From: an uncultured Planctomycetaceae bacterium
Lineage (GTDB): Bacteria; Planctomycetota; Phycisphaerae; SM23-33
NCBI GenBank assembly: GCA_964607575.1
Contig: CAZSLS010000008.1
Location: 9,799-73,798, forward strand
Reading direction: 5' to 3'
Length of the DNA: 64,000 nucleotides
Shown here: positions 11,145 through 64,000 of the stretch, piece after piece
How positions within the stretch are numbered: the stretch's first letter is position 1
Layout: each line of letters begins with the position of its first letter
Program-made: the position numbers and the translations under genes
Notes under the pieces: generated by a model
Databases searched by the model: none
Told to the model about the DNA's origin: nothing
What the model saw: only the letters and a program-made list of their open reading frames with translations

Positions 11145-11297
11145 AACGCCCGATGCCCCGATGGTACTTCACCGAGCAGGAAAATGTTTGTTGGCTCTCG
11201 GGTTCATGATACAATTGCCGATACTGAAAATGCCCGCGATGGTCGCGGGGTCGAGTCCATCCGGGCAATCCCGGTTCATGACAGGAAGGATTACAAA

Positions 11298-14200
11298 ATG
11301 TTCCAGAGAACAGTATTCACTTTTGCCTTATCGATCGGTCTTCTGGCCGCAACACTTACCGTCGCGCAGGCCGCCGATCCGGAATACTACGTAAAGAAAG
11401 CCACCTGGCAGGAAACCGTTCAGGCTTCGCGAGAGGCGCTGATTGTGCATTTGAACAAACCGGGTAAGCCCAAGGCGCCCGTCAAACCGATGTTCGGGCC
11501 CTGGTACGAGATCGGTCAGTATCGCGGCGGATTCGCTGCGGCTAACGGGCCCGAAAAGGCGATCGATCTTTCCAAGGGAGACGGGAAGCTCAAGTGGAAA
11601 CGGATCAAGGTCTCTGACGGCGTGGTCCACAGTCTGCGCCTCGGCGGCAACAGCGCGTCTTATTTCTACCGCAAGATCACCTCGCCCGGACCGGCGGCGG
11701 TCATGAGCTACTACGGAAGCGACGACGCATTGGCGGTATGGCTCAACGGAAAGAAGATCATTTCGAATAATGTCGCCCGCGGGCCCGGAGCCAATCAGGA
11801 CAAGGCCAAACTCATCTTAGTCCAGGGCGAGAATCATCTCCTGATCAAGATTCATAACCGCAGCGGCGGGAGCGGATGGTATTTCTCGACGTCGGCAAAA
11901 GGCGGCGGGAAGAAGGACATCCGCACCGCGATGCAGGAAGGGATATGGACGCTGGCGGCGCGAGATTTCAACACCGCTGAGATCCGCAAGCAGATGGCGT
12001 GGGAACAGGGCGACAATATATGGGCCGCCGACTGGAAGAAAGGCGATCTCGGCGCATTGGCAAAACGTTACGTCAGTCCGTCCGAGGGCAGCTCGGCTGC
12101 GGCGAAGATCAAAACCCTGGCGCCCGGAGCGAAATCCGCCGGCGACCTCGCGGCGATTCGCAAGCTCTACTACCGCGCCAAGTCCACCCAGGAAGCGCTC
12201 GCCCAACTGTCGCAATTCAACATCAAGGCGCTGCGTCTGGCGATCACGGACCTGACCAAGAGCTACCCCGGCAAGTATCCCGGCAAGTATCTCAAGCAGC
12301 TCGATAAAATCGAAGCCGCGATCACAGACGGCGGCGAAGAGAAGATTCGTGAAATGGCCCAGCAACTAGTCAGCTTCCGCCGCGAAGCGCTGCTGGCCAA
12401 TCCGCTGCTGAACTTCGACAAGCTCATGATGGTCAAGCGCAAAGGCGATCTGGGCCTGCCGCAAAACTGGGTGGGCAACTGCACGAAGCGCGGTCCGTTC
12501 AACAACGAGATAACCGTACTGTCGCCGGTGCGTCCCGACGGGAAGCTGACGACCCTCTACCGTCCTGAATCAAGCGTGTTCGTCGGCGACGTCGATCTGC
12601 ACTGGGACGCCAAAAAGATGCTGTTCTCTTCGCAGTTGAAGAACCGCCGCTACGAAGTTTTTGAGATCGGCGCGGACGGTAAGGGCCTGCGACAGGTCAG
12701 CAAGAGCCTCGACGGGATCGACAACTACGATGCCTGCTACCTGCCGAGTGGGAAGATAATCTTCGATTCTACCGCGGTTTACCAGGGCGTCCCATGCGTC
12801 GGCGGGGGAAGCCAGGTCGCCAACCTGTACGTCATGAATCCCGACGGTACGGGCATGCGGCAGCTCTGCTTCGACCAGGACCACAACTGGTATCCGTCGA
12901 TCACCAACGACGGTCGCGTGCTGTTCACCCGCTGGGAATACAGCGACACGCCGCACTACTTCACCCGCGTGGTGATGGGCATGAATCCCGACGGAACCAA
13001 TCAGAGGTCGGTGTACGGGAGTAACTCGTACTGGCCGAACTCGACGTTCTACGTGCGGGCGGTCCCGAACCACTCGTCGCGTTTCGTCGGCATAATCTCC
13101 GGGCACCACGGCGTACCGCGCATGGGCGAACTGATCCTGTTCGACCCCGCCAAGGGTCAGCAGGAGGCCGACGGCGTCGTGCAGCGAATACCGGGCTACG
13201 GTAAAAAGGTCGAGCCGATCATCCGCGACGCGCTGGTCAACAATTCCTGGCCGCGTTTCCTGCACCCGTTCCCACTGAGCGACAAGTACATCCTGACGAC
13301 CTGCAAGCTCAACTCGAAGTCGCCCTGGGGCGTTTACCTCGTCGACGTGTTCGACAACATCCTTCCGATCTGCGTTCAGGACGGTGTTGCGATGTTCGAA
13401 CCCCTCCCGCTGCGCAAGACCAAACGCCCTCCGGTTATCCCCGAGCGGGTAGACCTGGCGCGCAAAGATGCGATCATTCACATGTCGGACATCTACATCG
13501 GCGGCGGATTGAAGGGCGTCCAGCGGGGTGCGGTCAAGAAGCTGCGCCTCTTCGCGTTCGACTACGGGTATCACAATCTGGCGAACCACACGTATATCGG
13601 TATAGAAGGCCCGTGGGACGTACACCGTATTCTCGGTACGGTCGATGTCGAGTCTGACGGATCGTCGTCGTTTCACGTACCGGCGAACACCCCGATCGCC
13701 GTCCAGCCGCTGGACGAAAACGGAGCGGCGATGCAGTTGATGCGAAGCTGGTTCGTGGCGATGCCCGGCGAGAATCTCTCGTGCGTCGGTTGCCACGAGA
13801 ACAACAATGAGGCCCCGCCGGCCGCGATGGTGAAAGCCTCCCGCAAACCGCCGCAAAAGGTCAAAGACTGGTACGGACCGGCCCGCGGTTTCAGTTTTGC
13901 CCGCGAGGTTCAGCCCGTGATCGACAAGTACTGCATCGGTTGCCACAACGACAAGCCACGCAAGGGAACCAACCCGCCCGACCTGCGCCACGTGAACAAG
14001 AAGGGCTTCTCCACGGCGTACCGCGTGCTGCAGAAGCACGTGCGGCGACCCGGACCGGAGAGTGATTATCACATGTTCCCGCCGTTGGAGTATCACGCCA
14101 GCACCAGTCCGCTGATCCAGATGCTCAAGAAGGGACACAACAACGTCAAGCCGGACGCCGAGGCCTACGAGCGGATCTATGCGTGGATCGACCTGAACGT

Positions 14201-15140
14201 TCCATACTACGGGACGTGGGGCGAATTCCGGGCGATTCCCCGCGGGCAGCGCGAAAAACGCAGCAAGTTCCGCCAGCTTTACGCGGGAATCGATGCCGAC
14301 TACGAAGTCGTGCCAAAAGTCGCGACAAAACCGGTCAAGACGATCCTGCCCAAGCCGTTGAAAACTGCGGCACCGGTGAAGATCGCCTGCCCCAACTGGC
14401 CTTTCGACGACGCGGCCGCCAAGACCCTGCAGGGAAATGACAACAAGCGGACGATCACTGTAACCGTCGGCGAAAACAAGCTTCAGATCGAAATGGTGCG
14501 CATACCCGCCGGGCAGTTCGTCATGGGCGACGCCGCGGGAGCACTCGACGAGAAACCGATCTGCCGCGTGAAACTCGATAAGTCGTTCTGGATCGCGACC
14601 AAGATCATCACCAACGGACAGTACGCATTGTTCGACGCGAAGCACGACAGCCGCTACCTCGACCGCGGCGGAAAGGACCACTCGAATCGCGGTCATCCGC
14701 TCAACAGGCCCGAGCAGCCGGTCATTCGCATTTCGTGGAACCGGGCGATGGCGTTCTGCGATTGGATGTCCAAAAAGACGGGCAAGACCTTCTCGCTTCC
14801 GACTGAAGCCCAGTGGGAATTCGCCTGCCGCGCCGGCGCCGCCGCCGACAAGAGCGGATCGGGAAGCGTCTGGGGCGCGGGCCTGCCCGCCGCGATGGGC
14901 GAGTGGACACGAACGACCTATCGACCCTACCCCTACATCGCGACCGACGGACGCGACAACGGGAAACCCGCCGGACGCAAGGTCATTCGCGGCGCCAAGG
15001 GGCTCAAAGTACCGGGCGATCGTCGCGATACATACCGCTTGAGCTATCAATCGTGGCAGGGAGTCTGGAACGTCGGTTTCCGAGTCATCTGCCTGGACGA
15101 GGATCTCAAGAGCATAATAGCGAACGCCAAGCCGAGGTAG
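11298..15140 (+). CDS. Secreted multidomain protein: N-terminal beta-sandwich, HzsA-like beta-propeller with two CXXCH motifs, C-terminal FGE/SUMF1 domain
   Basis: ATG at 11298 ([25 protein letters not shown]). Propeller motifs [50 protein letters not shown]. Heme-c motifs CVGCHE and CIGCHN. C-terminus [12 protein letters not shown] ... [14 protein letters not shown] ... [11 protein letters not shown] is an FGE-sulfatase-like domain. Confidence 0.7.
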
Positions 15141-17251: not shown

Positions 17252-19300
17252 TCAGCGCTCGGCCTCGTCGGCGCCGAGGTCGGGTTTCCCGCTTCGTTTC
17301 TTGCGGTCGATGTCGTCGGTTACTTCAGGGCGTTTTTTGGCTTGGTCGACTACTTCCGGCAGGGGGCTCTTGAGGTGCAGATTTCCCTTGGCTGGGTCTG
17401 CGAAAGTGGCGGTGAGATCCTTGACCAGGTTGTTTTCGATGGTGACCTTTCCCTTCGATTCGTTGCGGGGAGGCGGTCCGCTGAGGATGTTGTCGGCTAC
17501 CAGCAATCCGTCGGAAGCGCCGAGGATGCGCACCAGGCGGCGCATGCGGCTTCGGGGCTCGTGGATCGTGTTGTTAAGAATCTTGCAGTCGGCTGTGTGC
17601 GCTGATAGCACGCCGGCCTCCGGCGCGCGGGTGATGAAGTTGTTGCGGACTATGCAGCGTCGGGCGTGCAGTTCGATGGTGCGTTCCTTCGGTAGATATG
17701 AGTTACCGAGGCTGACGCCCTTGTCGCAGTCGACGATGATATTGCGCTCGACTACGCAATCTTCGACCTCGTGCCAGAGGCAGATCGCCCCGCGTCCCTC
17801 GCGTGTGCGCCCCTGGATCCGCAGGAACACGTTGTTGCTTATGGTCCAGCCGGTGGCGTACATCACGTCGATACCGCCGACGTAGTTGCCGCCGAACCCG
17901 TTGGGTTTGTCGGCCTCATCGTCGCTGAACTTCTTGGCCCGGTCGTTGTAAAACAGGCAGTACTCTATGCGGACGCCACGCGGGCGCAGCTTTTCGCGAT
18001 TCTTCGGCGGAACTCTGACGCCCTTGACACCCCTCTGCCAGATGTTGTGGATCACGCAGTTGTAGATTCGCAGCCGTTGGACGCCGGTCTCCGAGTCGAT
18101 CTTGAATCCGTTCCACTTGACGTTCTGTATGGTCAGGTCGGCTACCGTGACGTCGCTGCAGGCGGTGAACGCCACCAGTTCGCCGATCCCGCCGCCGTCC
18201 AGAATCACATCATTACGGTTGCCCGTAGCCCCGCGGAGAGTCACCCTGTCGGTCCCGATCCCCAGGCGGCGCGAGAGCCTGTAGTGACCCGGGGCCACAC
18301 TGATCGTACCGCCCGGGCGGACCTTCCTCGCCGCGTCGAACAACTGGCGCACGGAAGCGACCTTGATGACCCGCCCCTTCGGCGGCGCCAGCTTGGGTGC
18401 CTTGGGCCACCACGACTCGTCAGGCACGGACGATGTCTTCTTGATTGGGGCGGGCTGTTGTTCCCCGGTCGCCAGGACGGTTTCTATCACCTCGACGTAT
18501 GCCTTCAGCGTCAGGTAGCTGCGGAGGTTGAAACCGTTGTGCCTGAGACCGACTTCGCTGAAATCCCTTCGCCACTTTGCGGGATTACTGGGATGTACAC
18601 CGTCGCGGGCGATCAGTGTGGGCACTTCGTAGGTCTTGTAGCCCTTGAACTTGTCGGCCGCCCCGTTCCAGTCATCGGGTCTGCGTTTGAGGATCTCGGC
18701 GTGGAAGTCGCTCAGCGGAACGTTCAGTTCCTTTGCGATCTTGCGGGCGGCGTTGGCGTATGCGGCGGCTTTGGTTTCCCGCCCGCTGCGGGGCGGGATC
18801 GTACTCAGGATCACCACCGAACCATTGGCCAGGCACTTGGCGACCAGCTTGCGCAGACCGGCCTGGTATTTCTCGACCGAGACGCCGCCGAGGTCGTTGG
18901 TCCCGAACATGATCAGGACGACCTCGGGGTTCAGCTTCGCCAACCAGCGGTCGGCGTTGCTGTTGGCCCAGGCGACGGTCTTACCGCTGTAGTTACCGTA
19001 GGCGGCGCCCTTCCAACCGCGCCAGCAATCCTTGAGCATGTACTTCATCACCCGCTGCCGCGATTGTTCCAGCCCGTCGAGCGCCTTGGCGGGCTTCCAC
19101 TGCAGCGACGACCAGAAGGCCATCGAGTAGGTAATCGAATCCCCAAAGTGCGCGAAAGAACCGGGTTTGCCTTTGAAGTTGGCGTGGGTCTTCTTCATCG
19201 CCGCCGCCCAGGCGGGCTGCTCTGCGGCGCCTGCAAGGGGTGACTGCAAGAGAAACGCTGCCAACAGGATAATCGCGACGTTGCGCAGTTGCATGATCAT
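17252..19300 (-). CDS. Secreted SGNH/GDSL hydrolase fused to a right-handed beta-helix domain
   Basis: Signal MIMQLRNVAIILLAAFLLQSPLAGAA. FGDSITY and MFGTNDL are SGNH blocks. The C-terminal half has repetitive beta-helix-like segments (ADLTIQNVKWNGFKI, RIYNCVIHNIW, ISNNVFLRI, VERNIIVDC, VRNNFIT, ILNNTIH). AAGGAG lies upstream of the start. Confidence 0.65.
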   Translation of the reverse strand: MIMQLRNVAIILLAAFLLQSPLAGAAEQPAWAAAMKKTHANFKGKPGSFAHFGDSITYSMAFWSSLQWKPAKALDGLEQSRQRVMKYMLKDCWRGWKGAAYGNYSGKTVAWANSNADRWLAKLNPEVVLIMFGTNDLGGVSVEKYQAGLRKLVAKCLANGSVVILSTIPPRSGRETKAAAYANAARKIAKELNVPLSDFHAEILKRRPDDWNGAADKFKGYKTYEVPTLIARDGVHPSNPAKWRRDFSEVGLRHNGFNLRSYLTLKAYVEVIETVLATGEQQPAPIKKTSSVPDESWWPKAPKLAPPKGRVIKVASVRQLFDAARKVRPGGTISVAPGHYRLSRRLGIGTDRVTLRGATGNRNDVILDGGGIGELVAFTACSDVTVADLTIQNVKWNGFKIDSETGVQRLRIYNCVIHNIWQRGVKGVRVPPKNREKLRPRGVRIEYCLFYNDRAKKFSDDEADKPNGFGGNYVGGIDVMYATGWTISNNVFLRIQGRTREGRGAICLWHEVEDCVVERNIIVDCDKGVSLGNSYLPKERTIELHARRCIVRNNFITRAPEAGVLSAHTADCKILNNTIHEPRSRMRRLVRILGASDGLLVADNILSGPPPRNESKGKVTIENNLVKDLTATFADPAKGNLHLKSPLPEVVDQAKKRPEVTDDIDRKKRSGKPDLGADEAER

Positions 19301-30400: not shown

Positions 30401-31024
30401 GCGCCGGGCGTTTTCCAGGTATTTCGGATTGTCCGATGCCAGCCAGGTCAGCCCGTTCAGCGCGAAGCCCACGTGTATCTTACCGTCGAACGTGCCGTCT
30501 GTGTTCTGGATGCGGGCGAGGTATTCGCAGGCGTCGATGTGGATGGCGCGACTCTTGGCGCAGTTGAAGGGCCAGTCGGCGCCTATCGCTCCGAGTTTGC
30601 GCATTGGGATCGTCAGGTTCTTTTTCACCCCGCCGCGCAAAACCTGCACCGCCAGCTTACCGGTGCGTTCGGACGGTTCGATCTGCAGGCCGAGCGTTTT
30701 GAGCGGCTCGGAGCCGAGCGCCTTACCGTTTACGGTCAGGATGATGTCGTTGGGCAGGGCGATCTTGTCGGCCGGTGATCCGTTCTCGACTTCCCGCACC
30801 ACCAGCTTGTCACCGAATATCCACCCGTTCATGCCCGTAGGACCGAATACGGTGGGCACGTGGAACTGCCTGCCGCACAGGGCAACGTCGGGACTCAGTT
30901 CGTCGCTGCGGAAGAAGTTGTCGCTCTTCGAGGGAGTTGCGCCCAAACCGAGCGTCGCCACCGCCGAGACGATTGCGATGATACTTGTGAGTTTGATGGG
31001 TGTCATGCCAGTTCCTTGATTCAC
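27447..31024 (-). pseudogene. Large secreted PDZ / alpha-alpha-toroid-like / HEAT-repeat protein, interrupted by a 1-nt frame change near 30107-30125
   Basis: ORF 30107..31024 (signal peptide, PDZ-like VVREVENGSPADKIALPNDIILTVNGKAL, toroid-like repeats) ends LVLIKEAGRM*. The overlapping frame of ORF 27447..30221 continues ADVSDTALNNATKFF with no plausible start nearby. The C-terminal part has HEAT-like repeats and a KPPKPPRNRKKKKKK tail. Confidence 0.55.
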
Positions 31025-32751
31025 TTGGCCAGCGAGACGCCGTGGCCCTTGTTATAGAGTGCGAGCACTTGCTCCTCGCTAAGCGGTCGGGACCAGATGC
31101 CCACCTCGTCGAACGCTTCGAACTGGCGGGCGATCTTCTTGATATTCCCGATCATCAACATCGCATCCTTGGCCGGGATGATGTGGTTGTCCTTCGCGAT
31201 ACCCCAGAACGGCTTGTCCAACTGTCCGCACGGGGCGCCCTTTTTCCCCTTGCCTCCCTTGGGCGCTTTGACGCCGTCGATGTATATCTCGAACGCCTTT
31301 CGCGAACCATCGTACATGACCGCCACGTGACGCCACTCATTACCGTCGGAGATAACATCGCCCGGACCGCCGTTGAACTTGAACCCCTTGGTCCCTCCGG
31401 CCAGACCGGCGGTTATAAACACCCCGCCCTTGGTTCCCCAGCACATGGCGTCCCAACCGGCGACGTTGGCGGTGTGGCTGTAGTACCAGTTGGTCGGAGC
31501 CCGCTCGATCTTCTTTCCGACGCCCTTTCCGATGCGCCCGCAACCGTAGTAGTTGGTGCGGTACCAGTAGGAAACCGTCAGGTTCTCGATATTTCCGCTC
31601 GCCCCGACCACATCCTTGTAATCGGGGAACTGAACGTGCTGCAGGCCGGTAAGCTGCAAACTCTTACCAATCACGCCCTGGGTCCACTCGGGTTTTCCGA
31701 TGAGCTTTCCGTCGGCGCAGCCGGCGTGGTCTTTTGTGGTCGCGCCCTTGCCTTCATCGAACGACCAGTATCCGATCAGGCCTTTGGTGAGTTTGGAAAG
31801 ATCGTACTTGGACTCCACCCGCTTGGCCCGGGCGGTGTACTTTCGGCCTGCTTTGAGCGTTTTGGCGTTGTCCTGGGGCACCGTGGTTTTGATGAAAGGC
31901 AGCATCGCCTTGCCCCCGCGCTCGCCGATGGTGATCATGCCCGGCGTGTTGTAGTGGCCTTTGGGATGCAGATCCATGGTTGATACCCATGCGGCCTGCC
32001 CGTCCGCCTCGGCGACCTTCTTCTGTGCGGCGCGAATCACCTTCCCGCCGCCTTTGCGGTTCCACACCGGGGCGGGCCCGATCTGGTAGATCAACACCGG
32101 TAGCTTGGGTACCGCCAGTTCGGTGCGCACGTCATGGATCAGGTCGCGCAAGTTCTCTTCATAATAATTCCAGAAGCCTGTCGAGCGATCATCCTTGACC
32201 ACTTCAGCCAGCGAATCGTTTTCGCCCTGGAACCAGACGAATCCGGCGAGTTCAAATTTTTGACCGTCATACTGCGGGTAGTCGCTCTTGGGATTGGCCA
32301 GGAAACGGTGGAATCGTCGCATCATGCGAAGGTACAGATCGCCCACCCTGCCGCCGGCCCGCTTGACCGCGCTGGGCGGACGCCAGCGGGTGTGCAGTTG
32401 CGTCCCGCCGGTGGCTGATTTGAACATGACGATGGGATTGTCGACGGCCTCGCCGAGGATTCTACCCATCACCAGTTCCGGACCGAAGATATTGTCGGAT
32501 GCGGCGCCTCCGCCAAAGCCGCATTTCAGCGGGCCGGATATCTTTCCAGCACGGATACACCACACGTCATCTCGCGGTTTATCTATGCCGGGGAATCGAG
32601 TGGTGCATTCCTTGCCGAAATAGTTGTGCCCTTCCATGTTGGATTGCCCGGCCATCAGGTAGATCTTGATTGGTTTCTTGTCCGCGGCCTGGGCGGAACC
32701 GGCGGCGATCAGGCAAAGCAACACCGCGACGATGATCTTATTATTCAGCAT
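31021..32751 (-). CDS. Secreted sialate-O-acetylesterase-like (SASA/SGNH) protein with a C-terminal LamG/concanavalin-like domain
   Basis: ATG at 32751 (MLNNKIIVAVLLCLIAAGSAQA). IYLMAGQSNMEGH and GFVWFQGEND are SASA-type blocks. The C-terminus LIGYWSFDEGKG ... NEWRHVAVMYDG ... VGIWSRPLSEEQVLALY is LamG-like. The stop overlaps the next start by 4 bp. Confidence 0.7.
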   Translation of the reverse strand: MLNNKIIVAVLLCLIAAGSAQAADKKPIKIYLMAGQSNMEGHNYFGKECTTRFPGIDKPRDDVWCIRAGKISGPLKCGFGGGAASDNIFGPELVMGRILGEAVDNPIVMFKSATGGTQLHTRWRPPSAVKRAGGRVGDLYLRMMRRFHRFLANPKSDYPQYDGQKFELAGFVWFQGENDSLAEVVKDDRSTGFWNYYEENLRDLIHDVRTELAVPKLPVLIYQIGPAPVWNRKGGGKVIRAAQKKVAEADGQAAWVSTMDLHPKGHYNTPGMITIGERGGKAMLPFIKTTVPQDNAKTLKAGRKYTARAKRVESKYDLSKLTKGLIGYWSFDEGKGATTKDHAGCADGKLIGKPEWTQGVIGKSLQLTGLQHVQFPDYKDVVGASGNIENLTVSYWYRTNYYGCGRIGKGVGKKIERAPTNWYYSHTANVAGWDAMCWGTKGGVFITAGLAGGTKGFKFNGGPGDVISDGNEWRHVAVMYDGSRKAFEIYIDGVKAPKGGKGKKGAPCGQLDKPFWGIAKDNHIIPAKDAMLMIGNIKKIARQFEAFDEVGIWSRPLSEEQVLALYNKGHGVSLAK

Positions 32752-32837
32752 GTGAAAGTTCCTTCTCTGCGGATAATGCCGGGTATATGGGCGCGACAAT
32801 TTTATTCGAGGGGCGGGGGCGTTGGCAAGAGCCGGCC

Positions 32838-55702: not shown

Positions 55703-58159
55703 CTATCGCCCCGGTTTCAGCGCGAACGACTTGATGGCCAGTCCTTTCTGCGGAGGGTTGCAGCGCAAAAACCGCAGTGTGTTGGCGCCCTTTTTGAGGG
55801 TGAGCGTGACCGGCTCGGAGTCCTGCCACTTGCCGACCGTGAAGGGCATCGTCATGGTGACCTTGGACTCGTCATTGGCAGAGACGACGAGTTGCTGATT
55901 GTAATTGGCCGTGACCACGCGCGCCGTCAACGAGTACTTGCCCGATCGCGGGACGGTGATCTCGTACTCAAAGTTCGATTTCGTGCCCTGACTCGGCCCG
56001 GTCGGGTCCTTCTTCGGACTTTTCGCGTAGTAGTCTCGGACATACGTGTCCGATATTCGCTCGCAAACGTTACCGTATATGTCGTATAGGCCCCACGGAT
56101 TGGGCTTCTTCTTGCCTACCGGATGCGACTTGCCGCCGGCGTTGTCCTTGAACCAGGCATAGTCTCCCAGCCGCGCCGGATCGTTGCCGAAGAACCATCG
56201 CGTGTCTTTGCCCGCGCGGGAGGCATACTCCCACTCGGCTTCGGTGGGAAGCCGCACTTCCCGACCTGTCTTCTCGGCGAGGTTCTCACAGAATTTCAGC
56301 GCGTCCGGCGCCGCGACGTTGTCAACCGGGCAGTCCGGGGCCTTGGTCGATCTGCTGGGGTTCGAGCCCATGACGGCTTGGTACTGCGCCTGGGTCACCT
56401 CGTACTTGCCCAGATAGAATCCCCTGGTGAGCGTGACCGCGTGCTTCGGTAACTCGACGCAGTGGAACCTTCCGTCGGTCTTGCTTTCGCCTCCCATCGC
56501 GAACGCTCCGGGCTTGATGTAGACCATCTCCATCGTCACGCCGTCGGCCAGCTTGAGCGTCAGTGTACGCGGGGCCCGGTTGCTGGCATGCGTGACCGCC
56601 GCCCGTAAACCCCAGTTGTTGTATCTACCATATCCGCCGCTGAGCAGCCGCCTCCCGGAGGTGCATGCCGGGGCGTCGCCCTTCCACGTTCCGCCGCGCA
56701 GAACAGTTTGGCCCTTAGGGGAGAAACGCGGGAGGAATATCTGCAGACCGCCGGCGAAGCTCTTCATGGCCTTGACATCCTTTGTGCTTCCGGAGGGCTT
56801 GCTGTATGCGGCGGCCGGTATCGATATGACGCCGCCGGAGCCGTAGACGATCTTCTTGTCCTCGGTGGTCTCCGGGCGGGCCGTAGCCTTCTCTTTTCCG
56901 TCCGCCTCGCCCAGGTTCTCGCCGACGGCCTTGAGCGCCTCGGCCTTGGTTTCCTTTATGATCGCTCGCTGAGTTTTGAGCGCCACACTGCTCCAGAATT
57001 CGGGCTTCCCTCCATCCCCGTAGGTGGGCTTCTCGCCCAGAACGTCGCCAGCCCAGTAGGCGCGTTTGACCTGCAGATACGCCGTGGCGTTACTGCGTGC
57101 CTGTGTAGTGGCCAGGAAAGCTCTGTCACTGGGGTATCGTCCGGCGTAATTGGAGCCCTTGCCGCCGCCCCATCCCGGTCCCAGGCAGACGACCCAACCC
57201 TTGGGCGTCCAGCGCGCCAGGGCCGCGTGGCCTCGACTGGGACGGGGAATGGTCGGAATCCCCCAGGCTCGCAACATAAATCGCCCGAAGAACGCGCGCC
57301 GGCCGCACACGCCTCCGTTCATAAGAATGTTCTGAAAGAACTGGAGTTCCGGCCTGTCGTATTTATTGTCCCCCGACCCGTACTTAACGTCACTCGAGAC
57401 GATACCCACATAGCGCCAGGAGTGGCTGGGTTGGTAGACATGGTCTGGACGGAAGTTGCGGAGTGTCTGGCGCCCCCAGGCGAGGGTCTCGTCCGGCTCG
57501 TGCCCGTCAACGACCATTCGCAGGTCCCAGGTGCTCAGACCTTTGAACGCCGAATCCAGTTCGCCGCCCAGGTAGGCCTTTTCGTAATGCAGGTAGCGCC
57601 TCGCCGGGTCAATGATCTCAGGTCCATCGGCAAGAGCCTTGGGATTTTGCCGGCTGACGGGAATCGCATGCTCCAGGGCGATGGCCAGCGCCAGCCGCTG
57701 CAAAACGCCTTTGGACGCCTTGTCGCTCACCTTCCGGATGACGGTGTAGATCTTCATCGTCGGGCCGTACTCCGCCGGGCCATACCCGCGGCCCTTTCGT
57801 GCGGCTTTGGCCCCGTCGGCGACCAGCATCTGCTTCATGAGGTCGGCGTCCGCCAGCAGCTTCTCGACCAGCGCCGCCTGTGCCTTTCCCTGCCCGGCGA
57901 ACTGGGCCAACCCTTGAGGCGTGGCCTTGAGCAGGACGACGTATTTGGCGAGCTTGGCGTCCAACGCGTCGCTTGCAAGGAACTTACTTACCGCACCGGC
58001 GCTGGCTTTCTGCGGGATCTTCGCTTTGAGTTCGGTGCGCAGTTTGTCGAGCATTCCCGAGTACCGCTTGACGAGCTGCTGCTCTGTCGCCGCCTCAGCA
58101 GCGCCGGCGCAAACGACCAAAGAGGCAAGTAAGATGAGGATGAACAATCTGGATTTCAT
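55703..58159 (-). CDS. Secreted multidomain protein with an FGE/SUMF1-like domain and a C-terminal beta-sandwich
   Basis: Signal MKSRLFILILLASLVVCAGAAEA. FGE-like blocks IKPGAFAMGGE, RLPTEAEWEYASRAG and NPWGLYDIYGNVCERISD. The usual C-terminal RGGSW..GFR block is not seen. Confidence 0.65.
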   Translation of the reverse strand: MKSRLFILILLASLVVCAGAAEAATEQQLVKRYSGMLDKLRTELKAKIPQKASAGAVSKFLASDALDAKLAKYVVLLKATPQGLAQFAGQGKAQAALVEKLLADADLMKQMLVADGAKAARKGRGYGPAEYGPTMKIYTVIRKVSDKASKGVLQRLALAIALEHAIPVSRQNPKALADGPEIIDPARRYLHYEKAYLGGELDSAFKGLSTWDLRMVVDGHEPDETLAWGRQTLRNFRPDHVYQPSHSWRYVGIVSSDVKYGSGDNKYDRPELQFFQNILMNGGVCGRRAFFGRFMLRAWGIPTIPRPSRGHAALARWTPKGWVVCLGPGWGGGKGSNYAGRYPSDRAFLATTQARSNATAYLQVKRAYWAGDVLGEKPTYGDGGKPEFWSSVALKTQRAIIKETKAEALKAVGENLGEADGKEKATARPETTEDKKIVYGSGGVISIPAAAYSKPSGSTKDVKAMKSFAGGLQIFLPRFSPKGQTVLRGGTWKGDAPACTSGRRLLSGGYGRYNNWGLRAAVTHASNRAPRTLTLKLADGVTMEMVYIKPGAFAMGGESKTDGRFHCVELPKHAVTLTRGFYLGKYEVTQAQYQAVMGSNPSRSTKAPDCPVDNVAAPDALKFCENLAEKTGREVRLPTEAEWEYASRAGKDTRWFFGNDPARLGDYAWFKDNAGGKSHPVGKKKPNPWGLYDIYGNVCERISDTYVRDYYAKSPKKDPTGPSQGTKSNFEYEITVPRSGKYSLTARVVTANYNQQLVVSANDESKVTMTMPFTVGKWQDSEPVTLTLKKGANTLRFLRCNPPQKGLAIKSFALKPGR

Positions 58160-58298: not shown

Positions 58299-59744
58299 TT
58301 ACCAATCATCCGTGCGGAACGGTGCGGCTGGTAAATTCGCACCGTTGTACAGTGTGCCGTGGGCGGTGTTCATGGTGAACAAGTAACGTGCCGCAACGGG
58401 CTGCTTGACTTCCTTGGAGGTCAGGACGACTTTATCGCCTTCAATCTTTGCGTCGGCCCAAGCCCATTTTTTGTCGGCGCCGGCGATGGCAAAGCCTTTG
58501 ACGGCGTCCACAGGTTTGGGGTCCTCAATATTCTTCTTGCCACGTTCTTTCATGGCGGCCTTGAGGCCCTTGCAATGCTCAAAGGAGATCGTTGCTTTGC
58601 CATCTTTGAACTCAGCGGACTTGAAGAGCGGCCCGGAATAGACGAGGTCTTTCTTTCCGTAGTCCTTAGCGAGCGCCCAGAGTGCGAGGCGACGACCAAC
58701 GTCGTACTTATTGTGAGGATGGATATTGCGAGGATCACCAATGTCGGTTAGGACTGCCATCCCTGTGTTTGGCAGCGTGAGACATTTTCGCTGTGCTTCT
58801 CGGACTTTTGCCCAACCGTCACCACCAGCGGGCTTTGCGTTGGGAGCCCTGAAACTGGCGAGCTGTGCGAAATAGAGCGGGAAGTCACCTTGCCCCCAGA
58901 CCTTCTTCCAACCTTCGTGGAGAGCCTTCTTTTTCTGGAAGTAGGTTTCGCCCTCGCCACCGTTGGATTCACCCTGGTACCAGATTGCTCCGCGGATCGC
59001 GTAAGGCGCGGCGGTGGCGCCCATCCCGTTGAACATTCCCGAGTAACCTCTCGGCTTCCAATTCTTGTCGAACCCCTTCATGACGTCGTAACCCTCTTGA
59101 GGTACCCAGGGCTCAATTCTGCAACCACCCCAATTGCAACCAATCAGGCCGACGGGAACGCCGAGCTCTTTGTTGATTACGGAGGCGAAGTAAAAACCAG
59201 CGGCGGTGAATTTTCCGACCGTCTTGGAAGAGCAAACCGTCCAGGGCATCTGGACTGCCGTCTTCCTGGTAGGTTGTTTGGCCTGTTTATGCGGGAACTT
59301 AATGTGACGAATCAAGCCGAGCTCGTCGGGCTTGACGTGCTTGGGCATAATGCTGCCGCCATAACCGATTCCCTCGCGTGTGACCGTCTGCTCCATATTC
59401 GATTGACCCGAGCAGAACCAGACCTCGCCGACGAGGATGCCGGAAAGCGTGACCGTGGTGCCATCGCCAGTGACGGTCATTTTTTGCGGCTTCTTGTCGA
59501 CCTTAAGGGCCTTAAGATTCAGGCTCCACGCGCCTTCTTTGTCGGCCTTAGCCTTGACGGTTTGCCCTGCGAAGGTGACACTCACCTCGGAGTTGGGCTT
59601 GGCCCAGCCCCAGACGGGAACCTCCATCCCTTGCTGCAAAACAGCATGGTCGGTGAACATAGGCGAAAGCTCGAGGGCTTGGGCCAGCGGCGGGGCAACG
59701 GTCAACGCGAGCAGCAGTAAAATTGCAGTGGAGAATCTTTTCAT
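58299..59744 (-). CDS. Sialate O-acetylesterase (SASA family)
   Basis: Signal peptide. VLQQGMEVPVWGWA, GEVWFCSGQSNME, GAIWYQGESN and IHPHNKYDVGRRLA. Confidence 0.8.
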   Translation of the reverse strand: MKRFSTAILLLLALTVAPPLAQALELSPMFTDHAVLQQGMEVPVWGWAKPNSEVSVTFAGQTVKAKADKEGAWSLNLKALKVDKKPQKMTVTGDGTTVTLSGILVGEVWFCSGQSNMEQTVTREGIGYGGSIMPKHVKPDELGLIRHIKFPHKQAKQPTRKTAVQMPWTVCSSKTVGKFTAAGFYFASVINKELGVPVGLIGCNWGGCRIEPWVPQEGYDVMKGFDKNWKPRGYSGMFNGMGATAAPYAIRGAIWYQGESNGGEGETYFQKKKALHEGWKKVWGQGDFPLYFAQLASFRAPNAKPAGGDGWAKVREAQRKCLTLPNTGMAVLTDIGDPRNIHPHNKYDVGRRLALWALAKDYGKKDLVYSGPLFKSAEFKDGKATISFEHCKGLKAAMKERGKKNIEDPKPVDAVKGFAIAGADKKWAWADAKIEGDKVVLTSKEVKQPVAARYLFTMNTAHGTLYNGANLPAAPFRTDDW

Positions 59745-60405
59745 TGTTGGTTTTCCTTATATTTAACTTTAGAAACGGTCTGTCTATTGTTTTCTTGCGG
59801 GCTTATCTTTTTCCTACCGGCCTGAGTGGTACGCCGCTTCAGCCCTGTTCACCATCCGGCGCATCCGTTTGGGCCCGGGGACCGTCCCCAGGCCGATTGA
59901 AAACAACATGATATCCGATCTGGCCTCGGTGGGGAAGGTGTTTCAAGCATATAGCGTTTGGTTCACGTACCGGGTACCCTGCTCGGCAGCCGACTCCCTG
60001 AACTTCTTGGTGTTGCTGCCGTATTACCATGTTATTTGTGCGAAACCCCCTAGAAACACAGCGTAACGGCACACGATCCCCAGAAAGAAAAACGGCGGCT
60101 TTCTGGGGGCTTCTTGGGTCCGTAGACTCGAACCGAGGGCAGACCCATAAGTACCAAGTATTTACAATAGACTATTGCCCTGAATCGTGAACATCCCTCG
60201 CAGAATATGCGGGAAATTGTGGCTTTGGCTCGCCGCCCAGGCCTTAGATTCAGGTTGCATAGTGTGCTGTGTCGGATACCATTACTGTGGAAGCCCCACG
60301 ATGGTCGCGGGCGCAATGCTATCTGGGAAATCCCAGGTGAAACCTAGGGAAGGGCGAGGAGTACAAACAGTGTTACTGATGGGTGAGAATGACCGTTGCG
60401 GACAC

Positions 60406-63168: not shown

Positions 63169-63341
63169 AGGACGCCGCTTCCTGCTTGTCCGATCACTGG
63201 AAGCGGCAACCATGCAAGACGTTCAACTCGGCGGATGCAAACGAGGGCTCGAGTGAGTCCCGCTTGTCTATCCGTCGCCGTCTCCGGGCGTCGCGCCGTC
63301 GGCAAGTTGGAAGTATCAAGAAAATTCAAAGGAGAATCACA

Positions 63342-64000
63342 ATGCGCCGAATACTTGTCATTTTGCTCTTGGTCGCCTGCCTTATCAGCCTTCAGTTATT
63401 GCATAGCGCTGATAAGCCAAGTACTCCGGTTCCGGCCGGTCGGGCGACTTTCCAGGCTCCGGTCGGTCGGGCGACTTTCCAGGATCCGGCCGTTCCGATG
63501 ATCGCGCTGCCGACGCGCTTCAGGTCACGACGCGCGCACAAGGTTGGCGCGCACGGGAATCCTGTTGTCGTAGCCGATCTGAAGGGTCCCGGATGCGTAA
63601 GGCACATGTGGTTTCTCTATGGCCAGAACGTTCGGTTGAACATCACCGTGGACGGCGCCAAAACGCCCCAAGTGGATCTGCCGTTGAAGGCGTTCTTCGG
63701 GATCATGCATGACAAGAACGACTATTTTGTCGACTCGGCGGCCTATACCGTGCTCCCCGGTTACAACTCATACCTTCCGATCCCTTTCCAGAGGTCATGT
63801 CTGATCACGGTCCAGCAAATAGACCGCAAGAAGGGGATCGGAGTGGACGTCATGGTGGATTGGCACGAGTATGACAAAGACACCGTCATCACGCCCTATC
63901 GCCTGCATACGGCCTACAGCATGTACAAACCGGCGCCGCCGCGCGGCGGTTACGTTGAACTGGCCGACGTCGGCGGTGAGGGTTTCGTAGCCGGCGTGGT
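63342..64000 (+). CDS. DUF2961 (GH172-like) family protein, C-terminus cut by window edge
   Basis: My translation from ATG 63342 (AAAGGAG 7 nt upstream) gives MRRILVILLLVACLISLQLLHS ... VVADLKGPGCVRHMWF ... NSYLPIPFQRS. It runs off the window, so it is absent from the ORF track. Confidence 0.55.
   Translation, partial: MRRILVILLLVACLISLQLLHSADKPSTPVPAGRATFQAPVGRATFQDPAVPMIALPTRFRSRRAHKVGAHGNPVVVADLKGPGCVRHMWFLYGQNVRLNITVDGAKTPQVDLPLKAFFGIMHDKNDYFVDSAAYTVLPGYNSYLPIPFQRSCLITVQQIDRKKGIGVDVMVDWHEYDKDTVITPYRLHTAYSMYKPAPPRGGYVELADVGGEGFVAGV
63432..63485 (+). repeat. In-frame tandem duplication, 2 x 27 nt (25/27 identical)
   Basis: ccggccggtcgggcgactttccaggct / ccggtcggtcgggcgactttccaggat encodes PAGRATFQA / PVGRATFQD just after the signal peptide. 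Confidence 0.8.

What the first reader, a model, noticed from the sequence alone, without database searches (positions are those of the whole stretch)
11298..15140. Diheme HzsA-like beta-propeller protein fused to an FGE/SUMF1 domain
This 1280-aa secreted protein combines three parts. The first is an N-terminal beta-sandwich. The second is a TolB-like propeller followed by two c-type heme motifs (CVGCHE and CIGCHN), which is the architecture of hydrazine synthase subunit alpha of anammox bacteria. I recall HzsA-related protein being used as an annotation name for such non-anammox homologs. The third is a C-terminal formylglycine-generating-enzyme-like domain ([37 protein letters not shown]). 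A redox (heme) module covalently joined to an FGE-type domain suggests an oxidative modification or sensing function. I do not know this to be characterised. The window also encodes a sulfatase and a second FGE-domain protein.
Basis: partly seen in the sequence, partly recalled or inferred. Interest (0 to 1): 0.6.

Follow-up and report, generated by a model that had tools for sequence, protein, structure and literature searches.

The report
HzsA-like two-haem protein, inactive FGE tail
This gene encodes an exported two-haem protein built like the alpha subunit of anammox hydrazine synthase, with a sugar-binding-type front module and a shrunken FGE-fold tail that cannot mature sulfatases. It is one of about 148 copies of a widespread family whose function nobody has tested.

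Summary
ORF 11298-15140 (+) encodes a 1280-aa Sec-exported protein with these parts:
- a PA14/galactose-binding-like beta-sandwich;
- a helical region;
- a TolB-like propeller;
- the Pfam HZS_alpha middle domain;
- two CXXCH haem-c sites (C829, C879) that align with HzsA haems alpha-I and alpha-II;
- a C-terminal FGE-fold domain.

The fusion is not a chimera. It recurs in at least 80 species-level genomes across Planctomycetota, Kiritimatiellota, Lentisphaerota, Verrucomicrobiota and Hydrogenedentota. Databases already name it 'HzsA-related protein' or 'SUMF1/EgtB/PvdO family'.

The FGE-fold domain lacks the copper-binding Cys pair, is closest to PvdO, and in this clade carries a 50-60-aa deletion. 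It is nevertheless as conserved as the haem lobe. The genome has a radical-SAM sulfatase maturase and no haem-copper oxidase, so an O2-dependent FGE role is not supported.

The HzsA-like core is the largest protein family in this genome: about 148 copies, 6.4% of coding residues. The expansion is genus-specific, and copies are modestly enriched next to sulfatases.

Best reading: a modular exported haem enzyme or redox protein tied to glycan breakdown, with both end domains acting as binding or positioning modules. The chemistry is unknown. This is a new member of a catalogued but uncharacterised family.

The parts
11283..11289 (+). Shine-Dalgarno-like AGGAAGG, 8 nt before the ATG
   Evidence: Read directly from the sequence.
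11298..15140 (+). Whole gene, 1280 codons plus stop: HzsA-related di-haem protein with an FGE-fold tail
11298..11372 (+). Sec signal peptide (residues 1-25, cleavage after AQA)
   Evidence: Sequence read by eye; modelled as an N-terminal helix. No signal-peptide predictor was run.
11475..11897 (+). PA14/galactose-binding-like beta-sandwich (about residues 60-200)
   Evidence: AF2 model. Foldseek hits to the PA14 carbohydrate-binding domain 6x8a (E 1.6e-5) and to GH31/GH2 sugar-binding domains. Ninety-four of the 152 paralogue end-extensions (extra N- or C-terminal segments) in this genome share this module type.
11919..12395 (+). Helical region (about residues 208-366) between sandwich and propeller
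   Evidence: AF2 secondary structure. No family match.
12420..13517 (+). TolB/PD40-like beta-propeller (about residues 375-740). It holds family-wide conserved D437, C500, R545, Y548, D565 and H603/H604.
   Evidence: AF2 plus Foldseek hits to HzsA and TolB. Conservation measured across 136 paralogues.
13527..13799 (+). HZS_alpha middle domain (residues 744-834)
   Evidence: Pfam PF18582, E 4.9e-30, 104 bits against a cut-off of 26.6.
13782..13796 (+). First haem-c attachment motif, C829-V-G-C832-H833
   Evidence: Aligns with CSGCH (haem alpha-I) of HzsA 5c2v_A. Invariant in 136 of 136 paralogues.
13932..13946 (+). Second haem-c attachment motif, C879-I-G-C882-H883
   Evidence: Aligns with CAMCH (haem alpha-II) of HzsA. 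Conserved in 97% of paralogues.
13800..14297 (+). Two-haem helical lobe (about residues 835-1000), with candidate axial-ligand residues H947 and Y908. M815 lies just upstream, in the middle domain.
   Evidence: AF2 helices. Conservation: H947 80%, Y908 88%, M815 82%.
14478..15101 (+). Reduced, Cys-pair-less FGE-fold (PvdO-like) domain (about residues 1061-1268)
   Evidence: Pfam partial match. Profile against PDB: PvdO 8.1e-23, then PorK/GldK, then FGE. Foldseek hits PvdO 5hha. Deletion and RGGS>RGAK change. Mean identity within the clade 68%.

Best explanation
The gene encodes an exported member of the very large, biochemically uncharacterised 'HzsA-related' family.

Shown:
- A conserved core, made of a TolB-like propeller, the HZS_alpha middle domain and a lobe carrying two covalently attached c-type haems, is homologous over its whole length to hydrazine synthase subunit alpha.
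- The core lacks that enzyme's special Tyr ligand.
- In this locus it has no beta-gamma partner gene.
- It is flanked by a PA14/galactose-binding-like sandwich in front and a Cys-pair-less, PvdO-like FGE-fold domain behind.

Inferred:
- The haem-propeller core is the working redox or catalytic unit. The conserved propeller residues C500, R545, D565 and H603/H604 would sit near haem I.
- The two end domains are non-catalytic binding or positioning modules for the substrate or a partner. The FGE-fold tail is not a formylglycine-generating enzyme.
- The substrates are probably glycan-derived (sulfated polysaccharides or their products), processed in the periplasm or at the cell surface of an anaerobic or microaerophilic marine Phycisphaerae bacterium, without O2 as co-substrate.

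The reaction catalysed is unknown.
For: Architecture and homology.

Not an FGE:
- No Cys pair in the query or in any of 93 fusion proteins.
- PvdO and PorK rank above FGE in the profile search.
- The NCBIfam scores for PvdO, EgtB and SenA are far below their cut-offs.
- The genome has an anaerobic sulfatase maturase (anSME) scoring 401 bits against a cut-off of 349 and no PF00115 oxidase.

The core is the constant unit:
- The genome holds 148-152 paralogues, nearly all with two CXXCH about 50 aa apart. Only 17-18 carry an FGE-fold tail.
- CXXCH-1 is 100% conserved and CXXCH-2 97%. C500 is 96%, R545 99% and D565 99% conserved across 136 paralogues.
- Cytochrome c maturation genes are present.

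The tail is functional, not decaying: within the 13-member clade it shows 68% mean identity and 71 of 208 invariant columns. The haem lobe shows 69% and the N-terminal sandwich 46%.

Glycan link:
- This is the largest family in the genome (2.8% of genes, 6.4% of residues). The second largest is the sulfatases, with 99 members.
- Sulfatases are enriched within 2 genes of paralogues: 19 observed against 8.4 expected, p 5e-4.
- The second paralogue in the window overlaps by 4 nt the start of a DUF2961/GH172 gene and lies beside a SASA esterase.
- Variant homologues carry F5/8-type-C modules.
- Sulfatase, GFO_IDH_MocA, Dak and aldolase genes recur next to homologues.

The >100-copy expansion is confined to this genus: 104-154 first-look candidates in its four other species, against 2-17 in neighbouring genera.
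Against: - No member of the non-anammox family has been assayed (PMC12758564).
- The neighbour enrichments are modest and uncorrected for the roughly 60-100 families tested.
- The query's own flanks are unrelated: a Metallophos gene upstream and an unannotated gene downstream. They are not conserved among its closest relatives.
- The PA14-like assignment rests on a moderate fold match (target TM about 0.37).
- I could not read model coordinates. The proximity of C500/H603 to haem I, and the docking of the tail on the core, are therefore untested.
- In an organism without a haem-copper oxidase, the electron partner of about 148 exported di-haem proteins is unexplained.
- The strong conservation of the tail fits a catalytic role as well as a binding role.
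Confidence: 0.55

Rival explanations
1. The PvdO-like FGE-fold tail is itself a catalytic dehydrogenase or oxidase module. It would oxidise a small periplasmic substrate and pass the electrons to the two fused c-type haems. The fusion would then be a 'Rosetta stone' for Cys-less PvdO-type proteins.
For: - PvdO is the closest solved relative.
- PvdO is genetically required for a periplasmic oxidation. It purifies without a cofactor and inactive, and the authors suspect it needs an electron-transport partner. CcmC is implicated in the pathway (PMC6206403).
- The tail is as conserved as the haem lobe.
- The whole 916-aa model has pTM 0.82, which would fit a tail docked on the core.
Against: - About 130 of 148 paralogues have the same di-haem core without any FGE-fold domain, so the haems do not exist to serve the tail.
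- The query clade has lost 50-60 aa of the domain and the RGGSW motif.
- The NF051459 score is 51.5 bits against a cut-off of 500.
- There is no pyoverdine-type context.
Confidence: 0.12
2. The protein is not an enzyme. It would be a haem-based redox or gas sensor, an electron shuttle, or a surface scaffold or binding protein, with the FGE-fold tail serving as a protein-protein interaction module.
For: - FGE folds serve as pure binders or scaffolds in Tsi3 immunity proteins (bioRxiv 10.1101/2021.05.21.445229) and in PorK/GldK rings. PorK/GldK are the second-best hits.
- TolB-type propellers are classic protein binders.
- No catalytic residues are known for the family.
Against: - There is no transmitter or output domain.
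- About 148 copies with swappable lectin-like modules looks like substrate diversification, not signalling.
- Polar residues in the propeller are strictly conserved.
Confidence: 0.1
3. It is the alpha-type subunit of a hydrazine-synthase-like nitrogen-oxide or hydroxylamine enzyme, working with one of the nine HzsBC-like proteins (propeller plus CCP/MauG di-haem) encoded elsewhere in the genome.
For: - It shares the whole fold of HzsA and both haem sites align.
- In a sister clade of the fusion, an HzsBC-like gene lies next to the fusion gene (directly downstream in most cases) in 13 of 75 loci, sometimes followed by a RidA/FkbO-like gene.
- The own genome has nine BC-like genes, some adjacent to tail-less paralogues.
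Against: - All 13 BC-adjacent fusions fall in a separate, well-supported 52-row clade. None of the 13 members of the query's clade is BC-adjacent.
- No Tyr follows the first CXXCH.
- The NF052339 score is 48.5 bits against a cut-off of 800.
- Published homologues lack the key HZS residues (PMC12758564).
- Nine BC-like genes cannot partner 148 alpha-like genes.
Confidence: 0.08
4. One reading: a haem-coupled genuine FGE-type enzyme that oxidatively modifies sulfatases or other proteins.
For: - There is a Pfam FGE-sulfatase hit.
- The genome is rich in sulfatases, with 99 copies.
Against: - The Cu-binding Cys pair is absent here, in all 44-49 FGE-fold proteins of the genome, and in all 93 fusions examined.
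- Only half of the Pfam profile is matched.
- The domain carries a deletion.
- An anSME is present and there is no haem-copper oxidase.
Confidence: 0.03

Closest known systems
Hydrazine synthase alpha subunit, HzsA (Kuenenia stuttgartiensis, PDB 5C2V chain A; NCBIfam NF052339)
   Same: It shares the propeller, the HZS_alpha middle domain and a C-terminal lobe with two c-type haems. Foldseek gives E 1.8e-27 over 785 columns. Both CXXCH motifs align.
   Different: - No Tyr591-type ligand follows the first CXXCH.
- The two motifs are about 50 aa apart, against about 100 aa in HzsA.
- There is no adjacent beta/gamma gene.
- It scores 48.5 bits against the equivalog cut-off of 800.
- It carries extra N- and C-terminal modules.
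- The organism is a sulfatase-rich heterotroph with about 148 copies.
Database family 'HzsA-related protein' / 'SUMF1/EgtB/PvdO family nonheme iron enzyme' (PF18582 + PF03781 fusions of PVC bacteria)
   Same: The architecture is identical. Full-length relatives share 49-90% identity across more than 100 clusters and at least 80 species genomes. The query is a plain member.
   Different: The query belongs to a 13-member subclade with a 50-60-aa deletion in the FGE-fold domain and RGGS>RGAK. The name 'nonheme iron enzyme' has no support here: there is no DinB_2 domain and no His triad was identified.
PvdO (Pseudomonas aeruginosa, PDB 5HHA)
   Same: It is the closest solved relative of the tail: profile E 8.1e-23 and Foldseek target TM 0.61. 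Both are periplasmic FGE folds without the catalytic Cys pair.
   Different: PvdO is a stand-alone protein of about 290 aa in pyoverdine clusters. The query's tail is fused, shorter, and scores 51.5 bits against the equivalog cut-off of 500. I did not map PvdO's essential Glu.
Formylglycine-generating enzyme (SUMF1; PDB 1Y1E, 6MUJ)
   Same: The fold is shared, as is the central WxRAxAFCxW...[10 protein letters not shown] block.
   Different: The two Cu-binding cysteines are missing. The C-terminal half of the Pfam model is not matched. There is an internal deletion. The organism uses an anSME.
Modular extracellular haemo-dehydrogenases (e.g. CcPDH: cytochrome + six-bladed AA12 propeller + CBM)
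   Same: The design logic is similar: a propeller, a cytochrome and a carbohydrate-binding-type module in one exported chain. Six-bladed propeller dehydrogenases occur in CAZyme clusters (bioRxiv 10.64898/2026.07.10.737718).
   Different: This is an analogy only. No PQQ or GSDH family matched the query above its cut-off, and no sGDH or AA12 structure is among the 50 listed Foldseek hits. The haems here are c-type and integral to the HzsA fold.

Membership tests
Formylglycine-generating enzyme (FGE/SUMF1) | FGE fold | tested here: met
   Pfam PF03781, E 1.1e-26. PDB profile hits to FGE at 2e-18. Foldseek hits to PvdO and SenA.
Formylglycine-generating enzyme (FGE/SUMF1) | Two active-site cysteines (CxxxxC) that bind Cu(I). 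The requirement is as stated in the literature read. | tested here: not met
   The cysteines of the tail are 1089, 1154, 1177 and 1265. None lies between RGAKG (1231) and GFRV (1260). None of 93 fusion proteins, and none of the 44-49 FGE-fold ORFs in the genome, has the pair.
Formylglycine-generating enzyme (FGE/SUMF1) | Complete domain, matching the full Pfam profile | tested here: not met
   Only profile positions 4-129 of 255 are matched. The domain carries a 50-60-aa deletion relative to paralogues.
Formylglycine-generating enzyme (FGE/SUMF1) | Formylglycine formation on CxPxR sulfatase peptides, dependent on O2 | not testable with these tools
   Indirect evidence only: the genome has an anSME above its cut-off, no haem-copper oxidase, and a cytochrome bd oxidase.
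Hydrazine synthase alpha (HzsA, NF052339) | Propeller, middle domain and di-haem C-terminal domain | tested here: met
   5c2v_A: E 1.8e-27, 785 columns, target TM 0.61. PF18582 scores 104 bits. Both CXXCH motifs align.
Hydrazine synthase alpha (HzsA, NF052339) | Haem alpha-I with a Tyr591 ligand and a His587/Cys303 zinc site | tested here: not met
   The sequence after the first CXXCH is ENNNEAPP, with no Tyr. This matches the published finding for non-anammox homologues (PMC12758564). Whether C500 corresponds to Cys303 could not be tested, because no sequence alignment of the propellers was obtainable.
Hydrazine synthase alpha (HzsA, NF052339) | Equivalog score of at least 800 bits | tested here: not met
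   48.5 bits.
Hydrazine synthase alpha (HzsA, NF052339) | Adjacent beta/gamma subunit genes | tested here: not met
   The neighbours are a Metallophos gene and an unannotated gene. None of the 13 members of the query's clade is BC-adjacent.
HzsA-related protein family (exported PF18582 di-haem propeller proteins) | PF18582 above its cut-off, two conserved CXXCH motifs, a signal peptide, and full-length homologues | tested here: met
PvdO (NF051459) | Equivalog score of at least 500 bits and a pyoverdine-cluster context | tested here: not met
   51.5 bits. There are no pyoverdine genes nearby.
PvdO (NF051459) | The essential Glu residue of PvdO | not tested
   The residue number was not available to me. 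The alignment puts Lys1237 at the PvdO position I suspect is this Glu, but I did not verify that this is the essential residue.
EgtB/OvoA/SenA sulfoxide synthases ('nonheme iron enzyme') | N-terminal DinB_2 domain providing the iron-binding His triad | tested here: not met
   There is no DinB family hit in Pfam or NCBIfam. Only the FGE-fold part gives weak partial matches (49-51 bits against cut-offs of 360-420).
PA14 / galactose-binding-like carbohydrate-binding modules | Beta-sandwich fold with a sugar-binding site | tested here: inconclusive
   The fold match to 6x8a has E 1.6e-5 and target TM 0.37. There is no Pfam hit. The binding site was not examined.
PQQ-dependent six-bladed dehydrogenases (sGDH/AA12) | Family match and the PQQ-binding residue set | tested here: not met
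   No PQQ or GSDH family matched the query above its cut-off. No sGDH or AA12 structure is among the 50 listed Foldseek hits, which are TolB, LRP and S9 peptidase propellers. The PQQ-binding residue set was not examined.

The most novel reading that the evidence does not exclude
The HzsA-related family as a whole would be an unrecognised class of exported, haem-c-dependent, O2-independent enzymes that act on sulfated glycans or glycan-derived compounds in anaerobic and microaerophilic PVC-type bacteria.

The family comprises about 13,000 clusters at 50% identity with E<=1e-10 (a count that also includes hits to the FGE-like tail alone) and about 148 copies in this genome. Each copy would be aimed by swappable PA14, discoidin or FGE-fold modules. 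The conserved propeller Cys (C500) and the His pair (H603/H604) next to haem I would form the active site.

In this reading the Cys-less FGE fold is a new kind of substrate-clamping or electron-coupled module. It would also explain why PvdO-type proteins need a cytochrome partner.
Probability: 0.25. Interest if true: 0.8.

Novelty: new member of a known kind. Interest (0 to 1): 0.42.

Why it matters
This single gene is an ordinary member of a family that databases already name. It should not be annotated as a sulfatase-maturing enzyme, as a non-haem iron enzyme, or as evidence of anammox.

The family itself is a large 'known unknown':
- It is the biggest protein family in this genome, taking 6.4% of coding capacity.
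- It has expanded more than ten-fold in one marine Phycisphaerae genus.
- It is present in thousands of clusters across PVC and allied phyla.
- No member has been assayed.

If these proteins carry out haem-based chemistry on marine polysaccharides without oxygen, an enzyme class would be missing from current models of anoxic carbon turnover. The fusion to a PvdO-like fold also offers a testable hint about how Cys-less FGE-fold proteins work.

Tried and rejected
1. True FGE: rejected on the missing Cys pair, the partial profile match and the deletion.
2. EgtB/OvoA-type iron enzyme: rejected because there is no DinB domain.
3. PQQ-dependent propeller dehydrogenase: no family or fold support.
4. 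Conserved operon for the query's own clade: none found. The flanks differ between the window and loci L001-L013 and L063. The loci from the same genus were too short to judge synteny.
5. Link to the window's 'sulfatase': no PF00884 gene was found in the window.
6. Sequence alignment of the propeller to HzsA, to test whether C500 corresponds to Cys303: not obtainable. Only the middle domain and the haem motifs align.
7. Measuring haem-to-residue distances or tail docking in the AF2 models: the coordinates are not exposed to scripts.
9. Literature: no paper links HzsA homologues to FGE domains or to polysaccharide use.
10. Promoter and terminator scan around the gene: uninformative.


Full report
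**Observation.** The ORF at 11298-15140 (+) is open and encodes 1280 aa. A longer reading from an ATG at 11184 is unlikely, for three reasons:
- 11298 is preceded by AGGAAGG at an 8-nt spacing.
- The product then begins with a typical Sec signal peptide...LTVAQA|ADPE.
- Full-length homologues start at the same point.

**Anatomy.**
- Pfam finds HZS_alpha (PF18582) at 744-834 (E 4.9e-30). It finds FGE-sulfatase (PF03781) at 1065-1184 (E 1.1e-26), but matches only the first half of that profile.
- An AlphaFold2 model of residues 365-1280, built on 52 homologues, has pLDDT 81.8 and pTM 0.82.
- Its best match among solved structures is hydrazine synthase alpha, 5c2v_A (E 1.8e-27, 785 aligned columns, target TM 0.61). 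TolB propellers follow. The tail matches PvdO, ToxD and SenA.
- The two CXXCH motifs align with the haem alpha-I and alpha-II motifs of HzsA. No Tyr follows the first motif, and the spacing is about 50 aa rather than about 100 aa.
- A second model (residues 1-381, pLDDT 83.6) shows a beta-sandwich at about 60-200 and a helical region at 208-366. The sandwich resembles PA14 carbohydrate-binding domains and the sugar-binding sandwiches of GH31, GH2 and GH3 enzymes at moderate significance.
- The genome has cytochrome c maturation genes.

**Is the tail an FGE?** No.
- FGE needs two cysteines that hold Cu(I) and activate O2 (literature read). The tail has Cys only at 1089, 1154, 1177 and 1265. None lies in the stretch [33 protein letters not shown], where the pair would sit.
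- None of the 44-49 FGE-fold ORFs of this genome has the pair, and none of 93 HzsA-like/FGE-fold fusion proteins from this and other genomes has it.
- A family profile ranks PvdO first (8.1e-23), then PorK/GldK and ToxD, and only then true FGEs (about 2e-18).
- The NCBIfam scores for PvdO, SenA and EgtB are about 50 bits against cut-offs of 360-500. There is no DinB domain.
- The query's clade has also lost 50-60 aa between CRAGA and the WG...EW block, and has changed RGGSW to RGAKG.
- The tail is nevertheless not decaying. Within the 13-member clade it is as conserved as the haem lobe (68% against 69% mean identity), and much more so than the N-terminal sandwich (46%).
- The physiology agrees. 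The genome encodes a radical-SAM sulfatase maturase above its curated cut-off, no haem-copper oxidase and one cytochrome bd oxidase.

**Family context in the genome.**
- PF18582 hits 148 places in the 7.3-Mb assembly. My own census finds 148-152 core-bearing ORFs.
- They form the largest protein family in the genome: 139 in one linkage cluster, with sulfatases next at 99 members. They make up 2.8% of genes and 6.4% of coding residues.
- Twenty-six copies are directly adjacent to another copy, against 7.8 expected by chance.
- Nearly all keep two CXXCH motifs. N-terminal extensions range from 0 to about 880 aa and C-terminal ones from 0 to about 640 aa.
- Ninety-four of 152 extensions share the query's N-terminal module type. 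Seventeen or eighteen copies carry an FGE-fold tail.
- Residues conserved across 136 paralogous cores: C829/C832/H833 100%, C879/C882/H883 97%, R545 and D565 99%, C500 and Y548 96%, D437 94%, Y908 88%, H603 84%, M815 82%, H947 80%.
- Families enriched within two genes of a paralogue:
  - PQQ_2/BamB-like propellers: 12 observed against 3.5 expected, p 1e-4.
  - Sulfatases: 19 against 8.4, p 5e-4.
  - LamG/DUF6055: 4 against 0.8.
  - HzsBC-like proteins (propeller plus CCP di-haem): 3 against 0.8.
  
  These p-values are not corrected for multiple testing.
- The expansion is genus-specific. The four other species of the genus show 104-154 first-look candidates. Other genera of the family and order show 2-17. 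Each of those four species has an 85-89% identical match to this gene, complete in two of them; one match carries an internal TAG.

**Distribution, phylogeny and neighbourhoods elsewhere.**
- The best 120 clusters in the 5.8-billion-protein collection all carry both Pfam domains. Those that have names are called 'SUMF1/EgtB/PvdO family nonheme iron enzyme', 'HzsA-related protein', or JGI's 'formylglycine-generating enzyme required for sulfatase activity'.
- Among 1.84 billion 50%-identity representatives, 1,703 match residues 365-1280 at E<=1e-30 and 13,253 at E<=1e-10.
- In species-representative genomes, at least 494 relatives were confirmed. The best 80 loci all cover core plus tail. They come from Phycisphaerae (including Sedimentisphaerales, Anaerohalosphaeraceae and Tepidisphaerales), Pirellulaceae, Planctomycetaceae, Thermoguttaceae, Kiritimatiellia, Victivallales/Lentisphaerae, Akkermansiaceae and other Verrucomicrobia, and Hydrogenedentes, plus a few bins with other labels.
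- A FastTree of 93 fusion proteins puts the query in a fully supported 13-member clade. That clade spans four phyla at 66-90% identity, which implies lateral transfer. It is defined by the tail deletion.
- A separate, fully supported 52-member clade contains all 13 loci in which an HzsBC-like gene lies next to the fusion gene (directly downstream in most). A RidA/FkbO-like gene and an NHL-repeat gene follow it in some of these loci.
- Loci of that clade also often carry Dak1, Dak2, a DeoC/LacD-family aldolase and a TAT-signal protein, usually upstream.
- This matches the non-anammox HZS-like clusters described by PMC12758564. That paper states that no homologue has an experimentally confirmed function and that the key HZS residues are not conserved.
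- The query's own clade has no conserved neighbours.

**Mechanism.**

Shown:
- The protein is exported.
- It has two conserved haem-c attachment sites in an HzsA fold.
- The tail lacks the FGE catalytic residues.
- The architecture is modular around a constant core.

Inferred:
- The core is the working redox or catalytic unit, and the conserved propeller residues contribute to a site at haem I.
- The end domains bind or position a substrate or a partner.
- The substrates are glycan-derived. The grounds are the co-expansion with sulfatases, the neighbour enrichment, the lectin-type modules, the second paralogue in this window translationally coupled to a DUF2961/GH172 gene, and the sugar-catabolic genes next to relatives.
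- O2 is unlikely to be a co-substrate in this organism.

I put 0.55 on this package. The rivals are:

| Rival | Odds |
|---|---|
| Catalytic PvdO-type tail wired to the haems (made attractive by the PvdO literature) | 0.12 |
| Non-enzymatic sensor, shuttle or scaffold | 0.10 |
| HZS-like nitrogen chemistry with a BC partner encoded in trans | 0.08 |
| Genuine FGE | 0.03 |

**Comparison and novelty.** The protein works most like, and is homologous to, HzsA, but it fails four of the five membership features of the anammox enzyme. It is a straightforward member of the catalogued, uncharacterised 'HzsA-related'/PF18582+PF03781 family, so I class it as a new member of a known kind.

Earlier notes of this scan on other genomes reached the same reading of the family and of the Cys-less tail. 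I treated them as leads only and re-derived each point here.

New in this report:
- the size and genus-specificity of the expansion;
- the deletion-defined subclade;
- the domain-wise conservation showing that the reduced tail is still under selection;
- the separation of the query's clade from the BC-linked clade.

**Limits.**
- Model coordinates could not be read, so no distances were measured.
- Gene calls for the census were my own crude longest-ORF calls.

Noticed in passing
window 60187-63168 (+) and 63165-63998 (+): A second HzsA-like paralogue (993 aa, PF18582 E 2.6e-25, no FGE tail). Its stop overlaps by 4 nt the start of a DUF2961/GH172-family gene. A SASA carbohydrate esterase (58299-59744, -) and an 818-aa FGE-fold protein (55703-58159, -) lie just upstream.
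   Followed up: partly
whole genome (G000): The genome has 44-49 FGE-fold ORFs and none has the catalytic CxxxxC pair. There is one anSME (C92:2521-3600), no haem-copper oxidase and one cytochrome bd oxidase. This is an expansion of Cys-less FGE folds in a probable anaerobe.
   Followed up: partly
L014, L042, L049, L052, L058, L061, L066, L067, L071, L075, L076, L077 (e.g. L071:3121-13255): A sister clade of the fusion shows recurring gene order across phyla. Dak1, Dak2, a DeoC/LacD aldolase and a TAT-signal protein often lie upstream. Then comes the HzsA-like+FGE fusion, then an HzsBC-like gene (propeller plus CCP/MauG di-haem). A RidA/FkbO-like gene and an NHL protein follow in some loci.
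   Followed up: partly
G000 C53:3793-10138: The own genome has a tail-less paralogue followed by an HzsBC-like gene and a RidA/FkbO-like gene. This is the same A-BC-Rid order as in other phyla.
   Followed up: no
No PF00884 sulfatase turned up in the window.
   Followed up: partly
L003-L013, L063 versus the window: The query's 13-member clade shares 66-90% identity across Planctomycetota, Kiritimatiellota, Lentisphaerota and Verrucomicrobiota MAGs from marine sites. This points to recent lateral transfer of the gene.
   Followed up: partly
G154:C128:73670-77515 (L083): The search reported one in-frame TAG inside the match to this gene in a sister species. The same locus matches the full-length database protein P0004 (from the Arabian Sea MAG also seen in L001/L003) at 100% identity. 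I did not resolve this discrepancy.
   Followed up: no
window 31021-32799 (-) and 17252-19300 (-): Further carbohydrate-active-type genes lie in the window: a SASA esterase fused to a LamG domain, and a GDSL esterase fused to a right-handed beta-helix.
   Followed up: no
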